Of a stretch of 64,000 nt of DNA, positions 11,742-63,782 are shown one piece after another. Every line of letters begins with the position of its first letter. Positions within the stretch are counted from its first letter, which is position 1. Made by a program: the position numbers and the translations under genes. The stretch comes from Octopus vulgaris (lineage: Eukaryota): contig OX597818.1 of NCBI GenBank assembly GCA_951406725.2, forward strand, positions 83,328,001-83,392,000, given 5' to 3'. The notes beneath the pieces are model-generated. The model saw nothing but the letters and a program-made list of their open reading frames with translations, was not told the origin of the DNA and made no database searches.

Positions 11742-12651
11742 AAAGCGACGATCTGGCAGAAACGTTAGCACGCCGGGCGAAATGCTTAAAGTTATTTAGT
11801 CTGTCTCTACGTTCTCAGTTCAAATCCCACCGAGGTCGACTTTGCCCTTCATCCTTTCGGGGTCGATTAAATAAGTACCAGTTACGCACTGGGGTCGATA
11901 TAGTCGACTTAATCCGTTTGACTGTCCTTGTTTGTCGTCCCTGTGTTTAACCACTTGTGGGTAGTAAAAAATAGGTATTTCGTCCGTCTTTAAAGGCGAC
12001 GAGCTGGCAGAATCGTTCGGGTGAAATGCTTAGCGGTATTTCGTCCGCCGTTAAGTTCTGAGTTCAAATTTCGCAGAGATCGACTTTGCCTTTCATCCAT
12101 TTCGGGTCAATTTGTTTGTCGTTCCTGTCTTTAGCCACTTGTGGGTAGTAAAAAATAGGTATTTCGTCTGTCTTTGCGTTCTCAGTTCAAATTCCGTCGA
12201 GGTCGACTTTGCCTTTCATCCTTTCGGGGTCAATTAAATAAGTACCAGTTACGCACTGGGGTCGACATAATCGACTTAATCCGTTTGTCTGTCCTTGTTT
12301 GTCCTCTCTGTGTTTAGCCCCTTGTGGGTAGTAAAGTAATAGGTATTTCGTCGGCCGTTACGTTTTGAGTTCAAATTCCGCTGAGGTCGACATTGCCTTT
12401 CATCCTCTCCGAGTCTATATGCTTAGCCCCTTGTGGGCATTAAAGAAATAATAAACGTTAGCACGCCGGGCGAAAAGTTTGACAGTATTTTGTCGGTCTT
12501 TACGTTCTGAGTTCAAACGTCACCGAGAGCGAATTTACCTTTCATCCTTTCGCGGTCGATAAATTAAGTACCAGTTGCGTACTAGGGATCGATCTAATCG
12601 ACTGGGTACTCTCCCAAAATTTCGAACCTTGTACCTAGAGTAGAAAAGAAT
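11742..12651 (+). mobile_element. Tandem array of SINE family B (Meta/MESC-like central domain)
   Basis: About five partly truncated units with head GGCGAGCTGGCAGAAACGTTAGCACGCC, B-box-like GAGTTCAAATTCC, and central GCCTTTCATCCTTTCGGGGTCGATAAATTAAGTACCAG. Confidence 0.85.
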
Positions 12652-16223: not shown

Positions 16224-16314
16224 TTTTAGTACAATTGTTTCATACAAAGACAGGCTTTATTACAAGTTGCAAAAATTGCAGCAGATAAAAGTGTCCCGTA
16301 CTCATCAGCTAAAA
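16224..16314 (-). ncRNA. Type I hammerhead ribozyme, near-intact
   Basis: Minus strand reads TTTTAG-CTGATGA-GTACGGGACA...TGTCTTTGTAT-GAAA-CAATTG-TA-CTAAAA. Stem I is TTTTAG/CTAAAA, stem III is the palindrome ACAATTGT, and the cleavage triplet is GUA. Confidence 0.8.
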
Positions 16315-36623: not shown

Positions 36624-37035
36624 AGGCGAGCTGGCAGAAACGTTAGCGCGCCGGGCGAAATGCGTAGCCGTATTTCGTCTGCCGTTACGCTCTGAGTTCA
36701 AATTTCGCCGGGGTCCACTTCGCCTTTCATCCTTTCGGAGTCGATTAAATAAGTACCAGTTACGCACTGGGGTAGATATAATCGACTTAATCCGTTTGTC
36801 TGTCCTTGTTTGTCCTCTCTGTGTTTAGCCCCTTGTGGATAGTAAAGAAATAGGTATTTCGTCTGCTGTTATGTTCGGAGTTCAAATTCCGCCGAGCTCG
36901 ACTTTGCCTTTCATCCTTTCGGTATCGATTAAATAAGTACCAGTTACGCACTGGTGTCGATATAATCGACTTCATCTGTTTATCTGTCCTTGTTTGTCCT
37001 CTCTGTGTTTAGCCCCTTGTGGGTAGTAAAGAAGA
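36624..37035 (+). mobile_element. SINE family B tandem, two tail type 1 units
   Basis: ~180-bp unit repeated from GGTATTTCGTC. Confidence 0.9.
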
Positions 37036-38509: not shown

Positions 38510-39645
38510 GCGGCGAGCTGGCAGAGTCGTTAGCACGCCGGGCGAAATGCTTAGCGGTATTTCGTCGGTCGCTACGTTCTGAGTTCTTATTCCGCCGAGG
38601 TTGACTTTGCCTTTCATCCTTTCGGTGTCGATTAAATAAGAAACAGTTACGCACTGGGGTTGATGTAATCGACTTAAACCGTTTGTCTGTCCTTCATTGT
38701 TCTCTCTGTGTTTAGCCCCTTGTGGGTAGTAAAAACGTAGGTATTTCGTCTGCCGCTACGTTGTGTTCAAATTCCGCCGAAGTCGACTTTGCCTTTCATC
38801 ATTTTGGGGTCGATTAAATAAGTACCAGTTACGCACTGGGGTCGATATAATTGACTTAATCCGTTTGTCCGTCCTTGTTTGTCCTCTCTGTGTTTAGCCC
38901 CTTGTGCGTAGTAAAGAAATAGGTATTTCGTCCGTCTTTAAAGGCGACGAGCTGGCAGAATCGTTAGCACACCGGGTGAAATGCTTAGCGGTATTTCGTC
39001 TGCCGTTAAGTTCTGAGTGCAAATTTCGCAGAGATCGACTTTGCCTTTCATCATTTCGGGGCCGATAAATTAAGTACCAGTTACGCAATTGGGTCGATAT
39101 AATCGACTTAATCCTACTGTCTGTCCTTGTTTGTCCCCTCTGTTTTTGGCCGTCTGTGGGTAGTAAAGAAATAGGTATTTCTGAGTTCAAATTCCGCCAC
39201 GGTCGAATTTGCCCCTCATCCTTTCGGGATCGATAAATTAAGTACCAGTTGTGTACTGGGGTCGATGTAATCGACTGGCTCCCTTCCCCAAACATTTTGG
39301 GCCTTGTGTGCCTATAATAGAAAGGATAAATTTAGTACCAGTTGCTTACTGGGGTCGATGTAATCGACTATCCCCCTCCCCAAAACTTTCGGGCCTTTTG
39401 CCTAAAGTAGAAAAGAATAGTGTCAGCGGCGAACTGGTTGAAACGTTAGCACGCCTGCCGAAATGCTAAGCGTTATTTCGTCTGTCTTTACGTCGTTAGT
39501 TCAAATTCCACCGAGGTCGACTTTGCCTTTCATTCTTTCGGAGTCGATGAATTAAGTACCAATTGCGTACTGAGGGGAGGGCCTATCTAATCGACTGACC
39601 CCCTCCCCAAAACTTCGGGCTTTGTGCCTAAACTACAAAGGAATA
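38510..39645 (+). mobile_element. Long tandem array of SINE family B
   Basis: Five to six units with mixed tail types, joined at GGTATTTC or at new heads. Confidence 0.9.
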
Positions 39646-42320: not shown

Positions 42321-42456
42321 ATATATGTATATATATATATTTAAAAGTATTCTGCGGGGCTGGGGAACGTGGTTTGATTTAACACGTGACCAAGTTTTAT
42401 TGATCACATGGCATTAATTTCAACAATTGAGGGTTTACAAATCCGAATTAAGGAAT

Positions 42457-42518
42457 TTTGGGCTGACGAAAGAAATGTCGAATTGTATTTGGCTGATCTA
42501 GAAACGTACGTTCTCAAA
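42457..42518 (+). ncRNA. Type I hammerhead ribozyme, copy 1
   Basis: TTTGGG-CTGACGA-AAGA...TCTA-GAAA-CGTACG-TT-CTCAAA. Palindromic stem III ACGTACGT and GUU triplet; the first stem II pair is A/A. Confidence 0.7.
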
Positions 42519-43020
42519 TAACCTTTGCATATGTGATTTTTTAATGTTTTTACCCCCATACCTTCGTGGGCTATTTTGAGTAAGCACTATCTGAGAGAAA
42601 TTTCCTTTAAGTATTAGAATTTGGCTAAAAAAATTTTTTAGCTGCTATTTCTAATGAGTTCAGTATGTGGCAAAGTAATTTATTTTACTAAGCCCTTTAT
42701 AAAATGTAATATTTTGAATTCGCCTTAAATGGTCCCTTTACATACTGAATACTTGGTGAAATTGATTAATAATTAATTAATTTTACCCTCAATTGTTGAA
42801 ATTATAATTCATTTCTCTCTGTTTAATGCTTCGGTTTTCACCGATAAAATTATGGTGTTTGCTAACTTAGCCCACGTGGGTGGAAAGGGGAGGGCAGAAA
42901 TTCTTCGCTTGCATATTTTGAATTTGTTGGCACTGGTAGTCTGAACGGATCCTCGAAGGTGAAAAGTCGCCAAAAGGGTATGCTCCTACTTTCAGTGTTT
43001 ACAAATCCGAATTAAGGAAT

Positions 43021-43082
43021 TTTGGGCTGACGAAAGAAATGTCGAATTGTATTTGGCTGATCTAGAAACGTACGATCTCAAA
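43021..43082 (+). ncRNA. Type I hammerhead ribozyme, copy 2 (cleavage-triplet U mutated to A)
   Basis: Identical to copy 1 except CGTACG-AT-CTCAAA. Confidence 0.6.
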
Positions 43083-43449
43083 TAACCTTTGCATATGTGA
43101 TTTTTTAATGTTTTTACCCCCATACCTTCGTGGTCTATTTTGAGTAAGCACTATCTGAGAGAAATTTTCTTTAAGTATTAGAATTTGGCTAAAAAATTTT
43201 TTTAGCTGCTATTTCTAATGAGTTCAGTATGTGGCAAAGTAATTTATTTTACTAAGCCCTTTATAAAATGTAATATTTTGAATTCGCCTTAAACGGTCCC
43301 TTTACATACTGAATACTTGGTGAAATTGATTAATAATTAATTAATTTTACCCTCAATTGTTGATATTATTTATATTATATATATATATATATACATATAT
43401 ACATATATACATATATATATATATACATATATATATGCATATATATATA

Positions 43450-43692
43450 CATACACACACACACAGATATATATATATATATAAAGATTTATGTAAAAGT
43501 GAAATCAAATTGGTAAAATAGTTTGAAATGCCATGTAATTTTATATTTCGATATAAGCTGTCGAATTACAATTTTCCTATATATACATATAGATGTAGGT
43601 ATGTACATATATGTATGTATATATGCAGATTTTTATATATTATTTATATTATATATATACATATATATATGTATATATATATATATATATGC

Positions 43693-43723
<31 letters not shown>

Positions 43724-43843
43724 CACACACACACAGATATATATATATAAATATTTATGTAAAAGTGAAATCAAATTGGTAAATTAGTTTGAAATGCCAT
43801 GTATTTTTATATTTCGATATGAGCTGTCGAATTACAATTTTCA
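43450..43843. repeat. Local tandem duplication (~125-bp island twice, period ~270 bp)
   Basis: ATTTATGTAAAAGTGAAATCAAATTGGTAAA...GCTGTCGAATTACAATTTTC at ~43487 and ~43753. Confidence 0.9.
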
Positions 43844-43907
43844 CATATACATACGTGTGTGTGTGTGCGGGCGCGCGCGTGTGTATACACACACACTATT
43901 CATATAA

Positions 43908-46339: not shown

Positions 46340-46395
<56 letters not shown>

Positions 46396-46396
<1 letters not shown>

Positions 46397-49300
46397 CCTA
46401 CGAAAATGACGACCTTCAAAATAATGGACCGGACGTTGTTCCTCATGTCCCGCAAATAAAACCCAAAAGATATAAATGGACCCGTGAAGAATGCATTTCT
46501 ATCCTACACGCTCACTTTACTGCAGTGCTCTACCCAAAGAATGAAAACACAACAACACATACATATAAAATATGGAAGGAAAATAACATAAATATAGACT
46601 TGGATACAGCAATGAACCCTAATAAACTAGCTAACGTACGAAGATACAGTCTCAACGCAAAAAAAATATCAGAAATAGAAATAGAACATCTAAAAGAAAA
46701 AAATACATCAGGAAAATGTAGATAGAAGCCACACAACAATGCCCAATAATATAAACACTGAAACAGTAAAGCACGAAGACAAACGTAACGTTCCCAAGAA
46801 ACACGATGTAAACAAAAAACGACAAATCCAGACCGTAATGATGCATAATAATACACGACAAACAGCAAGCCAAAACAAGACGAACAAACATACAAATAAG
46901 AAAGAAAGTGACACAAATCTAAAACCTGGAAACAATGAAAAAATCAAAATAGACGAAACAACAACACCAATTATAAACAGCATAAACCTAGCCGTCACGG
47001 AAGTAATAGCCACTGAAACAAAAAGCGATATCACTGAGCTAAATGACTTAGTATATGCAGCAGCCATTGTAGCCACAGAAGAAGCTGGATACTCACTCAA
47101 ACCCGTCCAAACAGGAGTACCACCACCCAAACAAACCCTACGGATAAATAACATCCAAAACAAAATACAAAAAATAAGAAAATATCTGTCGATTCTTAAT
47201 GGAATCAGTAGACAATCAACGCTACTGAGCAACAAAAAGAAAACAAAAATACTCCGCAAATACATCACAGAAAAAGATTTACCTGAGATAAAAGAAAAGC
47301 TAAAGCAAGATATCCTTGCCAAAGCACAAAGGCTCCGCCGGTACGAGAAACGCCAGGGCTTCTTTGAAAAAAACAAAAAGTTCAACTCCAATCCCAAAAA
47401 GTTCTACCAAGAACTTGGCAAAAATAAAATAGAAATCACCGCAGCAACAACGGCAGAAGAAGTGGAAGAATTCTGGAGAGAAATATGGTCGGCGAACGAT
47501 CAACCAAAAAAAAGGAGTATTGAAACAACAAACTCAGCATCTGAGCAACTTTGGACCACCATAACAACTGAAGAGGTCACCCAGGCACTACAAAGGCTAA
47601 GCAACTGGAAGGCACCTAGGCATGACAAGATCCCCAACTTATGGTTGAAATATCTAACAGGAATGCACAAAAAGCTGGCCGAAAACTTGAAAAACATACT
47701 GGCAGAGCCAGAGACAATGCCTGAGTGGTTCACAAAGGGGAAAACAATCTTAATTCCCAAAACAAATGAGACAGCAAAACCAGAAAACTACAGACCAATA
47801 ACCTGTCTCCCTACAATACAAGGAATTTACTGCAGTGATATCGCAACGGTTGAACAAGCACCTGGATGAAAACAACATGTTTCCAGAAGAGCAGAAAGGA
47901 TGCCGCAAAGGCTCAAATAGTTGTAAAGATCAACTAATGATTAATAAAGCCAGAACTGAAGACAGCCACAGAAAGAAGAAAGGCCTCAGTATGGCCTGGA
48001 TCGACTACAAAAAGACGTTTGAGAGCATCCCCCACACATGGATCCTCGAAACACTAGCCATTAACAAAGTAGCACCTACAATTATAAAATTCATAGGACA
48101 CTCTATGAAGAAATGGCAAACATTGCAACAGCTGCAAACAAAAGACAGTCTCATAAAAACCAAAGCCATCCCCATTAGAAGAGGAATATTCCAGGGAGAC
48201 ACGCTCTCTCCACTCCTTTTCTGCTTGGCACTGTCACCTCTATCTGATATGCTAAATAGTACTGGATGCGGATATAAATGTTACGGCAAAACGATCAGCC
48301 TCCTTTTATATATGGATGACATAAAACTATACGCTGTAAATGACAAAGAGCTGGAAACATTATTAAAGACAGTTCACGGATTTACCAAAGAAATAGATAT
48401 GAAATTTGGATTAGAAAAATGCGCCAAAGTAACCATGAAAAGAGGAAATCTAGTTAAGAGTAGCAACATCACACTAGATAAAACCAATGAAATAAAAGAA
48501 TTAGACCAAAGCCAAACTTACAAATACTTAGGAATCCATGAACTAGATAAGACACAACACACACAAATGAAAGAGAAAATAAAAAAGAATATTATAGACG
48601 AGTTAGATCAATACTAAAAACAGAGCTCAATGCTAAAAACAAGATAATAGGTATTAACACTTTAGCTGTCTCAGTTATAAGTTACAGCTACAATATCCTT
48701 AACTGAACACTAAATGAACTGACCAAAATAGATAGGAAAACAAGAAAAATAATGACAGGATCTAGGATGCATCACCCAAAATCTGACATAGAAATACTAT
48801 ATATACAACGTATAGAAGGTGGTAGAGGCCTTATACAGCTGGAAAACTACTATAAAATAACCACCATAGGACTGCAAAAATATCTACTTCAGAAGGAAGG
48901 AAAACTGATACAAATAGCGGCAAAACACGAGCAAAACAAAAAACTGTTCTCAGGAAGCTGACAAATACAAACAAGAAATCATATCACCTAACAAAGAAGA
49001 AGAAGAAGAAGAAGAAGAAGAAGAAGAAGAAGAAGAAGAAGAAGAAGAAGAAGAAGAAGAAGAAGAAACAACAAAAGCTATAAAACAAATGAAATCCAAA
49101 CTAAAAATAGAACAGCAAAGATCTATGATAAAACGATGGCAAGAAAAGCCCCTTCATGGTAAATACTGGACTAAACTAAATGCAAAAGAAATAGAAAAAG
49201 AAAAATCCCAGCAATGGTTTGGAAGCTCAGGACTCAAAGGCAGAGACAGAGGGATTTTTAATTGCAGCACAAGACCAAAGCCTCCCCACCAGAAATGACC

Positions 49301-50024
49301 AAAAACATGTAATGAAAAGAAATATAACAAGTAACTGCAGAATATGTGGAGATGGACAAGAAACAATAAATCATATTATCTCTGGCTGCCCAGTCCTGGC
49401 TAAGAAGGAATATATTCACAGACACGACAGAGTTGGAACCTTCATACACTGGAAACTATGCCAACCTTATGGAATAACAACAACAAAAACAGATGGTATA
49501 GGCACACACCAGAAAATGCCACAGAAAACGAGAAAGCAACCATACTCTGGGATATGCCGATACACAAAGACAGAGAAATTAAGGCCAACAGACCAGATAT
49601 AGTTGTCAGAGATCATGAAGAAAATAAATGCTTTCTAATTGATGTATCAATACCGGCAGATGACAAAGTGTCTCTAAAAGAAATGGAGAAACTCTCAAAA
49701 TACAAAGACCTGGAAATAGAGGTAACCATAATGTGAAATCTAAAAACAGAAACAATTCCTATCATAGTAGGTGCATTAGGCATGATAAAAAAATATTCAA
49801 ACTAATACATAACAAAAACACCAGGATTACATACACATATAACATACAGAAAATTGCACTACTAGGCACTGCACACATCCTACGCAGAACACTTTCCATA
49901 CAATAACCATCAGAGCATCACAACAAATCACAGCACATACGCAAGGCACACAGAGCTGCGCTCGGTAGTGAAGTGAAAGCACGCTATAAAAATAAAACTA
50001 CTGAATAATAATAATAATAATAAT
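46396..50024 (+). mobile_element. R4/Dong-type non-LTR retrotransposon (RT plus restriction-like endonuclease), near full length, inserted in (AAT)n
   Basis: One ancestral ORF split over 46312-49905: N-terminal KWTREE, RT motifs YRPITCLPT, EEQKGC, WIDYKKxFxSIPH, RGIFQGDTLSPLLF, YMDD and KYLG, CCHC knuckle CRIC..HIISGC, RHD, and RPDIV..D..K..KY. (AAT)n on both sides. Confidence 0.93.
46405..49905 (+). pseudogene. Disabled RT-RLE polyprotein of the R4/Dong element
   Basis: Frameshifts near 46710, 47820, 48590, 48950, 49215 and 49490; stops near 48704 and 49735; a (GAA)n expansion at ~48995-49066. Confidence 0.9.
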
Positions 50025-60581: not shown

Positions 60582-61817
60582 TATGTGAGTGTGGTTTGAC
60601 TAAAGTTTCATGTTTCGGAGGAAATGTGCTAATATAACGCTGGGACGAATATACTTGTACATCTATTCTTGCTAAATATGCTGACCTTTGCTATTCTCCA
60701 TGTCGAAAACACGTGGTCTTCGACACTGTTTTATTTATCACAAACACATAATATTGACTGCGTCTGTATAAGTGTACCCGTCTGAGATTTGAAATGACAT
60801 TTGTTATATGAAACGTAAATTGCGCCAAGGACCAGAACATTATTGCAACAACCGTTTTGTTGACACAATTTAGTATATAAATACTATCAGAAAATAATAA
60901 ATTGAATACGATGGTATATTGGTTTTTGTTATCGTTTTACTCTAAATTATATTGATATGAAGTCTCTGAAACAATGTCAGCATAATCACATTACCGTTCC
61001 TGTTAAGGTAACACTATAGAGTATGAAATTTTGAAGCCAAGTGTACTCAGACCTCGTTATCACTGTGTTACGATACAGCGACTGGGGAGATTCAATATAT
61101 AAGCTACGAGAAAATTGAAATATTACTTAAACAACAAAATTATACTTCAATATCTGCAGCACTTTTCTTCTCTTTCATTATTATTATATATTCAACATAA
61201 ATATATATTCTATTATACTATTATTATTTTTTTCCAATATGTGATATTTTGAATTTCTTATTCTCATGGGAACGGAAGTTGTATACGTATGTAAGCCGGT
61301 CTCAATTATATAGGCGTTGTTCTATTTGTATGTAGGTATACGAAATGCATGTACGTAACTTTATAGAGTGCTTCTGTGTGCATGTGTGTATATGCATGTG
61401 TGGGTGTCTGTGTGTGTTTGTAATTAGGAATAAGCTACATTTTATCACACATATTATTTATTTCTTAGCGTGACACATCATATATTCTATTGTCCTGGGA
61501 TTGAATGCTTATGGTGCATGTGTGTGTGTATGCTTGTATTATGTATGTGGGTGAGTATGTTTGTGTACGTGTGTGCGCGCGTGTGTTCGTGCGTGGGTGC
61601 GTGAAATAATGAAATATTTATTTTCAAGATATAAAGAAAATATTTCTGTGCAACCACTTAGCAAAGTGCCCAGTGAAAATGGAAGACTGAAGTTTCAAAG
61701 TGATAACATATAAACATAAGAAAGTAGCTAAAACACTAGATTTATGAGCCATAATACAGACACATTTTCTCATATATAGATGCATTTATTATACATACAT
61801 ATATATATATGTTTATT

Positions 61818-62696
61818 CGTGTTCTGATTAATAAGTATCCGGATTGTTGCTCTAGTAACAACGCTAAAGCGCTCAGAGTAAAGCTGCTTGGCAAAAATTA
61901 ACCATGGGCACTGCTGCGCCTGTGCACTAAGTTTCAACATTCTAGCTCACTTCCGTTGTATACAGCAATGCTTGAAATGAAGGTGTGTAATGTGCGATCG
62001 TCTCATTGACCATGACAGAAGAAGTTTTCCCGGTGATACCTGCTCAGACGCCTACGCAAAGTTGTTGAAAATGTATAGAGAGGAGTGAATGAATGCACAC
62101 AAGTGTACGAGTTGCCCAGACGTTTCCAAGCTGGCCGAAAAAATGTTGATATTGACGAACATTGTGGGAGACCCGCTACCAGCAGAACTGAGAAAAATAT
62201 CGAAAATGCGCGTGCAGTTGTGAAGGAAAATCGTTGAATCACCATCCACGATTTATCAGAGGATGTGCAGATTAGTTACGTTTCAATTCAGTCCATTATC
62301 ACTGAAGATTTGGGTATGATACGCGTGTCTGCGCAGTTTGTCCCAAAACTGCATTCAAATGAGCAAAATCACACTCGGGTTTCTGTTGCACAAGATCTCC
62401 TTGATTGTGTCGAGAACAATGAAAACATTTTGAAAACTTTGCGTAGCCCTTTGACTAGAAATTGCTAAGCTTTTGGCAAAATTTGATGCAGACTATCTGC
62501 TTAGGTTTCTCTGTCATGGTCAATGCGACGATCACACGCTACACGCGTTCTTTCAAAGCTCTACTGTAAACAGCAGAAATGAGCTGGAGCGTTATATCTT
62601 AGTGCGCATGCACTACAGATTTCCAGGTGGCTTCACTCTGCGCGCTTTAGCTTCGTTAATATGACAACAGTCCGGATAATTATTGATCAGACCACG
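61818..62696 (+). mobile_element. Mariner-derived foldback element with ~210-bp inverted ends
   Basis: Termini CGTGTTCTGATTAATAAGTATCCGGA and TCCGGATAATTATTGATCAGACCACG-TA. Internal RFQAGRKNVDIDEHCGRP..ENR*ITIHDLSE..EDLGMIRVSAQFVPKL is mariner HTH sequence. Confidence 0.88.
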
Positions 62697-62718
62697 TACA
62701 CGCGAATATATTCATACT

Positions 62719-62778
<60 letters not shown>

Positions 62779-62869
62779 TTATATATATATAAATATTATT
62801 ATGTATGTAGAAATACACGCACACATACACACACATATATATACACACATATATTTATATACACGTATC

Positions 62870-62900
<31 letters not shown>

Positions 62901-62946
62901 GTATATACAATTATTCATAATATACAATTATTCATAATTGTAGTGT

Positions 62947-63037
62947 CCTACGCTGATGAGAAAAGAAGTTGGGTAAGACATAATTATCTAAATCTTATGC
63001 TTTCCTAAAACTTAATTTCGAAACGTACGTCCGTAGG
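62947..63037 (+). ncRNA. Type I hammerhead ribozyme, canonical core
   Basis: CCTACG-CTGATGA-GAAAAGAAGTT...AACTTAATTTC-GAAA-CGTACG-TC-CGTAGG. Perfect 6-bp stem I, G-C first pair of stem II, palindromic stem III, and GUC triplet with predicted cleavage after 63031. Confidence 0.88.
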
Positions 63038-63126
63038 TGACTTAAAATTATATATATATATATATGTAAATATATATACATATAAATAAATATATGCATA
63101 CATACATACATATATATGTGTGTATA

Positions 63127-63173
<47 letters not shown>

Positions 63174-63782
63174 GTGAGCACCCAAATTCTCACTCACACA
63201 CGCATATGCAAATATGCTATAAAACTAGAAACGTAGCTAGTAAAAGTACAAATACATTACGCTAGTGTATTTTAATTTATTTTTATTATTTTCCCTTTGA
63301 ATTGCTTGTTTGTTTGACTTACTTTTTGGTCAACCTCTTTTTGTTGGTGCTCCACATATTTTATTCAACTGGATACTATACTGCAGAGCTGATATGAATT
63401 TGATCTATATATGCTGTAGATCTTTATGGTCTATTTGAATCTATGGACTTTGATATCCTTCCCTCTTGCCATACCGGTTAAAGAGTAGGTGTGTAAGATT
63501 GTAAGTATGCATGCGTTTATGCATGTCAACATGTGTACATACACATGTATACTATGTTTTGTTGAAAATCCCGTAATGTGGGTAAAAGAAAATAAAGCAG
63601 GATCCATTAATTATGAATTTAATCAACATATTGCCCTCTCAGATTCACACACTTATCGAAACGGTCCTTCACTTTTTCTAAGACCTGTAAATAAACTCGG
63701 AAACTTGGGCCTACAACCTGGTCTTTCGCGATACCCTTTTCATCACCACTTCTATATCACACACACACACTATCACACACAG

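What the first reader, a model, noticed from the sequence alone, without database searches (positions are those of the whole stretch)
62895..63050. Canonical, probably active hammerhead on a ~150-bp island
Seen: every conserved core nucleotide is present, with a GUC site and a ~60-nt stem II extension. Stem III has the same ACGTACGT palindrome as the otherwise unrelated motif at 42457. The island is bounded by (TA)n and starts with a short duplicated TATACAATTATTCATAAT. Inference: the best single candidate for self-cleavage; it could cut any plus-strand transcript passing through, probably more efficiently as a dimer.
Basis: partly seen in the sequence, partly recalled or inferred. Interest (0 to 1): 0.72.

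Follow-up and report, generated by a model that had tools for sequence, protein, structure and literature searches.

The report
Long-armed hammerhead in truncated retroelement copy
This is a real hammerhead-ribozyme motif, but it is one cut-off copy of a repeat present many times in this animal genome, likely spread by Penelope-like retrotransposons, and it is predicted to cut best when paired with a second copy, so it is a fairly ordinary member of a known class rather than a special switch at this spot.

Summary
Confirmed: a type I hammerhead on the + strand (62947-63037) with a complete core, GUC site (cut 63031/63032), 6-bp stem I, 60-nt stem II and an ACGUACGU stem III. None of 200 window shuffles gives such a motif; Rfam Hammerhead_1 scores it below threshold (E 0.0006). 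It is not a lone island. Public contigs pile on it at thousands of times flank depth, show several subfamilies with compensatory stem II changes, and run at least 69-80 nt further upstream. So it is a 5'-truncated copy between (TA)n runs, with a likely insertion scar at its 5' end. Two more hammerhead families between TA repeats lie in this window. Best reading: a retrozyme or Penelope-like element end; no link to an ORF could be tested. The active fold is about 0.2% of the monomer ensemble, but is the minimum-energy fold of two molecules. No partner copy lies in the window and transcription is unshown. One subfamily carries a U4C core change. Earlier notes of this scan report long-armed hammerheads of other families elsewhere in this genome. 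New member of a known kind; modest interest.

The parts
62722..62897 (.). Left (TA)n/(GA)n/(CA)n microsatellite, the likely target site
62895..62917 (+). 5' junction: perfect 20-bp palindrome (62895-62914) and the first unit of a perfect 17-bp duplication; not covered by family contigs, likely an insertion scar
   Evidence: family contigs in runs X2, X3, X4, X12, X16 begin at 62918 although masking ends at 62909
62918..63037 (+). Part shared with the multi-copy family; 63038-63049 probably belongs too but was masked by the tool
   Evidence: contigs X2:9, X3:16, X4:17 match 62918-63037 with one difference
62925..62940 (+). Imperfect palindrome just upstream of the ribozyme
   Evidence: sequence; folds as a hairpin in the 351-nt context
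62942..62952 (+). Stem I 5' strand: 6 bp next to the core, a 2x2 internal loop, 3 more bp
62953..62959 (+). Core C3-A9, CUGAUGA
62960..63019 (+). 60-nt stem II arm: 4 bp, small internal loop, irregular long hairpin; A62992 is private to this copy
   Evidence: -10.7 kcal/mol, z -2.0, 22 of 500 shuffles as stable; variants
63020..63031 (+). Core GAAA, palindromic stem III ACGUACGU, GUC cleavage triplet (predicted cut after 63031)
   Evidence: (self-duplex -9.8, monomer hairpin +2.4 kcal/mol)
63032..63049 (+). Stem I 3' strand and a 12-nt tail
63049..63170 (.). Right (TA)n microsatellite

Best explanation
This is a type I hammerhead motif in a 5'-truncated copy of a multi-copy repeat lying between (TA)n runs, likely inserted by Penelope-like retrotransposon enzymes, and predicted to self-cleave at GUC, best as a dimer paired through its ACGUACGU palindrome. 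In the parent element (a tandem retrozyme, or the end repeat of a Penelope-like element; the two could not be told apart here) two ribozymes in one transcript would pair and cut out unit-length RNA. An endonuclease/reverse transcriptase that nicks TA repeats would copy that RNA from near its 3' end. Here copying would have stopped about 35 nt upstream of the core and slipped, leaving the inverted and duplicated letters at the 5' junction. This lone copy has no partner in cis, so it likely cuts a passing transcript slowly, unless its loop 1-loop 2 contact stabilises the monomer. Shown: anatomy, repeat status, truncation, subfamily covariation. Predicted: folding. Inferred: mobiliser, cleavage, junction mechanism.
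For: Anatomy matches the canonical metazoan type I hammerhead (helix I 6 bp, helix II 4 bp, helix III 1-2 bp with palindromic loop; PMC4209133). Summed contig depth in DNA run X1 is 15,000-90,000 over the island against 11 for the contig on the unique flank 63294-63400; one 60-nt contig alone has depth 2,167. Contigs X4:17 and X3:16 run 80 and 69 nt upstream of 62918, and X2:11 170 nt upstream of 62925. One X1 contig starts at 62995 right after TA letters. Contig X2:11 has two double changes in stem II (62961/63018 A-U to G-C; 62970/63009 U-A to C-G), a mismatch turned into a pair (62971/63008), a change at the free position N7, and a palindrome change that still pairs through two G-U (tables 3 and 7, read by hand). 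Free co-folding gives the active dimer. Two other hammerhead families in the window also sit between TA-type repeats, one as a 564-bp tandem. Hydra, Naiad and Neptune elements are linked to (TA)n or microsatellite insertion, with 5'-inverted pieces and 30-40 bp tails (PMC8557442).
Against: No link to a reverse-transcriptase ORF and no tandem arrangement of this family was seen: the genome is not held and no joint appears over the island, though a unit longer than the laid stretch would not show. The family's true 3' end was hidden by repeat masking; here only 12 nt follow stem I, against 29 for the 16308 motif and about 30-90 for three Hydra consensus elements. Three short motifs of this family (and one of the 16308 family) were not found in the Craig et al. 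supplement. The covariation rests on one contig of one subfamily. A subfamily with U4C in the core has large depth (7,007 of 14,844 in X1), which fits poorly with strict selection for cleavage. The arm alone is only modestly stable (z -2.0).
Confidence: 0.75

Rival explanations
1. The lone copy is an efficient monomeric ribozyme: the internal loops after 6 bp of stem I and 4 bp of stem II dock like canonical loops 1 and 2, so any plus-strand RNA passing through is cut. Compatible with the retroelement origin.
For: The helix lengths are the canonical ones. Monomers of coral and mussel retrozymes cleave at about 0.8 and 0.1 per min, and axolotl HHR_Amex2 (2-bp helix III plus tetraloop, as here) cleaves 22% in 1 h (PMC7229834). 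Nearest-neighbour folding ignores tertiary contacts.
Against: The active fold is about 0.2% of the monomer ensemble in three contexts, because core letters pair with the palindrome. Metazoan PLE hammerheads tested were weak or silent as monomers (PMC4209133). Nothing here bears on whether this strand is transcribed.
Confidence: 0.3
2. It is specifically the 3' end (pseudo-LTR) of an autonomous Hydra-clade Penelope-like element, as earlier notes propose for other long-armed families in this genome.
For: Hydra elements insert into (TA)n, carry a hammerhead near the 3' end, and include an octopus member. Two low-depth contigs both end 32 nt after stem I, near the roughly 30 nt of Hydra-1_Obim.
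Against: The 26 tabulated Hydra/Repbase rows have stem II of 10-24 nt and stem III of 3-4 bp, usually with extra letters at the base of stem II; this motif has 60 nt, 2 bp plus a palindromic tetraloop, and no extra letter, which is closer to retrozyme-type hammerheads. No ORF link was seen.
Confidence: 0.35
3. The fold is kept as a protein-binding or priming signal and cleavage is dispensable for the family's spread.
For: A U4C subfamily is seen in four runs (X1, X12, X16; X2 loose end). In the anole PLE, ribozyme cleavage was not needed for insertion in vitro and was protein-assisted (PMC11167929).
Against: The main subfamily and the divergent one keep the whole core. U4C lowers activity in vitro but supports viroid infectivity (PMC3088659). 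One search did not list the 62954 change as a row.
Confidence: 0.2
4. Chance arrangement of AT-rich sequence.
For: Rfam score is below the gathering threshold; whole-region fold z is only -2.1.
Against: 0 of 200 shuffles; compensatory changes between subfamilies; the same design in an unrelated sequence at 16308.
Confidence: 0.01

Closest known systems
Animal non-LTR retrozymes with canonical type I hammerheads (Cervera and de la Pena 2020, PMC7229834: passages and sections 13, 14 read; Li et al. bioRxiv 10.64898/2026.07.22.740005: parts 1-2 of 5 read)
   Same: Type I hammerhead, 6-bp helix I, 4-bp base of helix II, 2-bp helix III with palindromic tetraloop; many copies, AT-rich, non-coding as far as seen; solo monomers are common in such families.
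   Different: Stem II is a 60-nt arm with an internal loop in place of a short terminal loop; tandem units and circular RNA not shown for this family; flanked by (TA)n.
Hammerheads at the 3' end of Penelope-like elements, Hydra clade (Craig et al. 2021, PMC8557442: passages, section 11, supplement parts 1, 2, 52 of 59 and term searches)
   Same: Sense-strand hammerhead shortly before a (TA)n target; 5' truncation; inverted letters at the 5' junction; an octopus member exists.
   Different: Tabulated Hydra stem II is 10-24 nt and stem III 3-4 bp. Long arms of about 47-52 nt are tabulated for two spike-moss PLE-X1 elements, so a long arm has a published precedent. No ORF link here.
Dimeric hammerheads of newt/axolotl satellite 2 type (as described in PMC7229834 and PMC4209133: abstract, results and discussion read)
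   Same: Short palindromic helix III that becomes a long helix in the dimer.
   Different: 2 bp rather than 1 bp in the monomer; long stem II; solitary copy.
Rfam RF00163 Hammerhead_1
   Same: Full-length model match, core letters identical.
   Different: 23.6 bits against gathering 34 because the arm is treated as an insertion; missed in standard annotation.

Membership tests
Type I hammerhead ribozyme | Core CUGANGA / GAAA / NUH | tested here: met
Type I hammerhead ribozyme | Three helices, stem I open | tested here: met
   Stems I and II form; stem III is 2 bp in the monomer, 8 bp in the dimer
Type I hammerhead ribozyme | Structure kept by compensatory change | tested here: met
   Two double changes in stem II in contig X2:11, read by hand; one subfamily only
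Type I hammerhead ribozyme | Loop 1-loop 2 tertiary contact | tested here: inconclusive
   Helix lengths fit (6 bp, 4 bp, then internal loops); the contact cannot be modelled by these tools
Type I hammerhead ribozyme | Self-cleavage at NUH | not testable with these tools
   Needs in vitro assay
Non-LTR retrozyme | Multi-copy family with canonical type I hammerhead | tested here: met
Non-LTR retrozyme | Tandem head-to-tail units | tested here: inconclusive
   This copy is solitary; no joint over the island, but a unit longer than the laid stretch would not show
Non-LTR retrozyme | Linear and circular RNA of unit length | not testable with these tools
   Only contigs were available
Penelope-like element (Hydra clade) | RT plus C-terminal GIY-YIG ORF upstream of the hammerhead | not testable with these tools
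   Genome not held; the copy is truncated 35 nt upstream of the core
Penelope-like element (Hydra clade) | Insertion into (TA)n | tested here: met
   This copy and one more contig; not counted family-wide
Penelope-like element (Hydra clade) | Hammerhead like the published Hydra motifs (stem II 10-24 nt, stem III 3-4 bp) | tested here: not met
Penelope-like element (Hydra clade) | Fixed 3' end with optional 30-40 bp tail | tested here: inconclusive
   Letters beyond 63037 masked; two contigs end 32 nt past stem I, this copy reaches TA after 12 nt

The most novel reading that the evidence does not exclude
These are a distinct long-armed class of animal hammerheads in which the 60-nt stem II is a selected module, such as a handle for the Penelope-like reverse transcriptase or a priming signal. 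Two unrelated families in this window have arms of exactly 60 nt, the arm covaries, and a subfamily with a weakened core (U4C) still multiplied. The ribozyme fold would then serve mainly for recognition, and this family would offer a natural U4/U4C pair for testing why Penelope-like elements keep hammerheads.
Probability: 0.2. Interest if true: 0.55.

Novelty: new member of a known kind. Interest (0 to 1): 0.27.

Why it matters
On its own, little: animal genomes hold thousands of type I hammerheads in retrozymes and Penelope-like elements, and this is one truncated copy. It is useful in two ways. Long-armed motifs like this fall below the Rfam threshold, so they are undercounted. And this family is a compact test case for the open question of what the hammerhead does for Penelope-like elements: an intact GUC copy, a clean predicted monomer-to-dimer switch, and a natural U4C subfamily. 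I found no paper on this family in seven searches; the library lacks most subscription papers and Repbase was not searched.

Tried and rejected
Own-genome search: no genome held, so copies, ends and ORF links could not be counted. Rfam at gathering scores: nothing in the window; with TA flanks only microRNA-like noise. Pattern scans of viral and metagenome contigs: 0 matches. Sequencing runs: no RNA holder listed; run X12, only guessed to be RNA, covers the island and the neighbouring transposon end in roughly the proportions of the DNA run, so it was not used as evidence on expression. A second read-laying designed to see the letters beyond both ends failed because 62880-62909 and 63038-63067 were still masked. 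Depth is higher over the 3' half (X4 11.5 against about 800; X2 90 against 300), but in X1 it is not monotonic, so I did not count it as proof of a 5'-truncation gradient. Family motifs were not found in the Craig et al. supplement (line breaks in its FASTA files could hide a match). Earlier findings by sequence, near place, relatives and one word search: nothing. A poly(A)-signal hexamer in the arm, suggested by earlier notes for other families: absent here, present in the 16308 motif. Pairing in cis with the 42457 motifs: rejected as unlikely, since they are 20 kb away, their stem I strands differ and their cores are degenerate. Supplements of PMC7229834, PMC4209133 and the bioRxiv preprint were not seen and may list similar motifs.

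Full report
Observation. The motif is as described. On the + strand, CCTACG (62947-62952) and CGTAGG (63032-63037) form stem I around the core CTGATGA (62953-62959), a 60-nt stem II region (62960-63019) closed by G-C and three A-U pairs, GAAA (63020-63023), the palindrome ACGTACGT (63023-63030) and GUC (63029-63031). A descriptor scan of the window found two motifs at stem I of 5 bp or more: this one and one on the minus strand at 16308. In 200 block-wise dinucleotide shuffles of the window there were 0 hits at strict settings and 1 at the settings. Rfam found nothing at gathering scores and no hammerhead with the TA flanks included; on the island alone Hammerhead_1 matched end to end at 23.6 bits, E 0.00059, below its gathering score of 34. 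The 17-bp duplication and both microsatellites are confirmed.

It is a repeat, and a fragment. No genome is held, so I used public runs. Twenty of 24 listed runs hold part of the stretch, in 10 studies and under five organism labels; none is on record as RNA. I laid 6 of them (X1 and X3 twice). In DNA run X1 summed contig depth over the island is about 15,000-90,000, against 11 for the contig on the unique flank at 63294-63400. The tool warns that this sum is no copy number; a single 60-nt contig at depth 2,167 suggests, as a rough floor, a hundred or more near-identical copies. Contigs X2:9, X3:16 and X4:17 match 62918-63037 with one difference: position 62992, where every laid contig has T and this copy has A, in the distal arm. 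X4:17 and X3:16 go on for 80 and 69 nt upstream of 62918, and a divergent contig (X2:11) for 170 nt upstream of 62925. So the window holds a 5'-truncated piece. The first 17-bp unit is not covered by family contigs, and it overlaps a perfect 20-bp palindrome at 62895-62914. I read these letters as a scar of slippage and fold-back at insertion; this is inference, and one subfamily contig also seems to carry the upstream palindromic motif twice. The 3' end could not be seen, because the tool masked 63038 onward; X3:16 and X4:17 both stop 32 nt past stem I, whereas this copy reaches TA after 12 nt.

Subfamilies. Read by hand from tables 3 and 7, contig X2:11 changes 62961/63018 from A-U to G-C and 62970/63009 from U-A to C-G, turns the 62971/63008 mismatch into a pair, changes the free core position N7, keeps UAA on the 3' side of the internal loop, and alters the palindrome in a way that still pairs in a dimer through two G-U pairs. 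This is one contig of one subfamily, though several of its 5'-side changes recur in 3-10 X1 contigs. A second subfamily remodels the tip of the arm and often carries U4C: 7,007 of 14,844 depth in X1 (4 contigs), 193 of 513 in X12, one contig in X16, and a loose end in X2. One search did not list this position as a row. U4C lowers activity in vitro but allows viroid infectivity (PMC3088659, passage).

Folding. Stem I and the base of stem II form well (pair probabilities 0.90-1.0 and 0.70-0.76 in three contexts), but in the monomer the core letters pair with the palindrome, and the active fold is about 0.2% of the ensemble. The palindrome costs +2.4 kcal/mol as a hairpin and gains -9.8 as a duplex. 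With two molecules and no constraints, the minimum-energy structure is the active dimer: both cores open, an 8-bp shared stem III, exchanged stem I strands, -53.0 against -44.8 kcal/mol for two monomers. The arm alone is modestly stable (z -2.0; 22 of 500 shuffles). These models ignore tertiary contacts. The 6-bp and 4-bp helices followed by internal loops match the canonical spacing (PMC4209133), and monomers with similar short helix III do cleave in coral, mussel and axolotl (PMC7229834), so monomer activity is open. My estimate, as judgement: measurable cleavage in vitro about 0.85 for a tandem dimer and 0.6 for the monomer; meaningful cutting of a host transcript at this locus about 0.1.

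Context. Two more hammerhead families lie between TA-type repeats in the window. The minus-strand motif at 16308 has an unrelated sequence, also a 60-nt stem II, the palindrome ACAATTGT, a GUA site and 29 nt before (TA)n. The motif at 42457 lies in a 564-bp tandem repeat (42427 and 42991, 98% over 300 nt) bounded by (TA)n, with a 20-nt inverted piece at its 5' side and degenerate cores in both copies; it looks like a retrozyme. The island has no other copy in the window.

Mechanism. Shown: anatomy, repeat status, 5' truncation, subfamily changes. Predicted: monomer misfolding and dimer rescue. Inferred from the literature: a Penelope-like RT/endonuclease nicks TA repeats and copies the element RNA from near its 3' end, often incompletely, with inverted 5' pieces (PMC8557442; PMC11167929, passages); in the parent element two ribozymes pair and release unit-length RNA (PMC4209133; PMC7229834). 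Whether the parent is an ORF-less retrozyme or an autonomous element is open. The ribozyme's anatomy is closer to retrozymes than to the 26 tabulated Hydra/Repbase rows (stem II 10-24 nt, stem III 3-4 bp), and a preprint argues that animal retrozymes derive from Penelope-like end repeats, so the two readings are close kin.

Novelty. Type I hammerheads in the thousands are known from animal repeats, including a mollusc. A long stem II has precedent in two spike-moss PLE-X1 rows (about 47-52 nt). Seven paper searches found no description of this family, and three of its motifs were not in the Craig supplement. Earlier notes of this scan describe long-armed hammerheads of other families in this genome, which they call octopus-like; none matched this sequence. 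I did not establish the organism myself. They led me to the Hydra comparison, which I could test only in part. Verdict: new member of a known kind, interest 0.27. The boldest reading not excluded is that the arm is a selected recognition module and cleavage is secondary (probability 0.2, interest 0.55).

Noticed in passing
window 16400-16194, minus strand: Second type I hammerhead (core at 16308) of an unrelated family: 60-nt stem II with AATAAA, palindrome ACAATTGT, GUA site, 29 nt before (TA)n; about 200-bp island between microsatellites; folds poorly into the active form.
   Followed up: partly
window 42341-43370: Retrozyme-like 564-bp tandem repeat (about 1.7 units, 98% identical) between (TA)n runs, with degenerate hammerheads at 42463 (GUU site, A-A at the base of stem II) and 43027 (U16.1 changed), and a 20-nt inverted piece at 42415-42434.
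   Followed up: partly
window 46342-49900: Broken non-LTR retrotransposon between (TAA)n runs at both ends; RVT_1 E 8e-27 and zf-RVT E 7e-06. A restriction-like endonuclease family is my recall from its motifs, not tested.
   Followed up: partly
window 61812-62699: Likely decayed mariner/Tc1-like transposon just left of the island: rough terminal inverted repeats and transposase-like fragments by eye (no Pfam hit). Its right end has summed depth up to 320,000 in X1, and relatives run into TA letters.
   Followed up: partly
window 62954 in related copies: A subfamily carries U4C in the hammerhead core, seen in four runs.
   Followed up: partly
run X1, loose end before 62971: One contig joins the arm to an inverted piece of itself, which may be a head-to-head insertion of the kind seen in Penelope-like elements.
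   Followed up: no
window 11793-12406, 36670-37033, 38556-38932: Tandem arrays of a 182-184-bp SINE-like repeat that also occurs singly beside (TAT)n runs.
   Followed up: no
window 43371-43853: 266-bp duplication, 90-92% identical, right after the 564-bp repeat.
   Followed up: no
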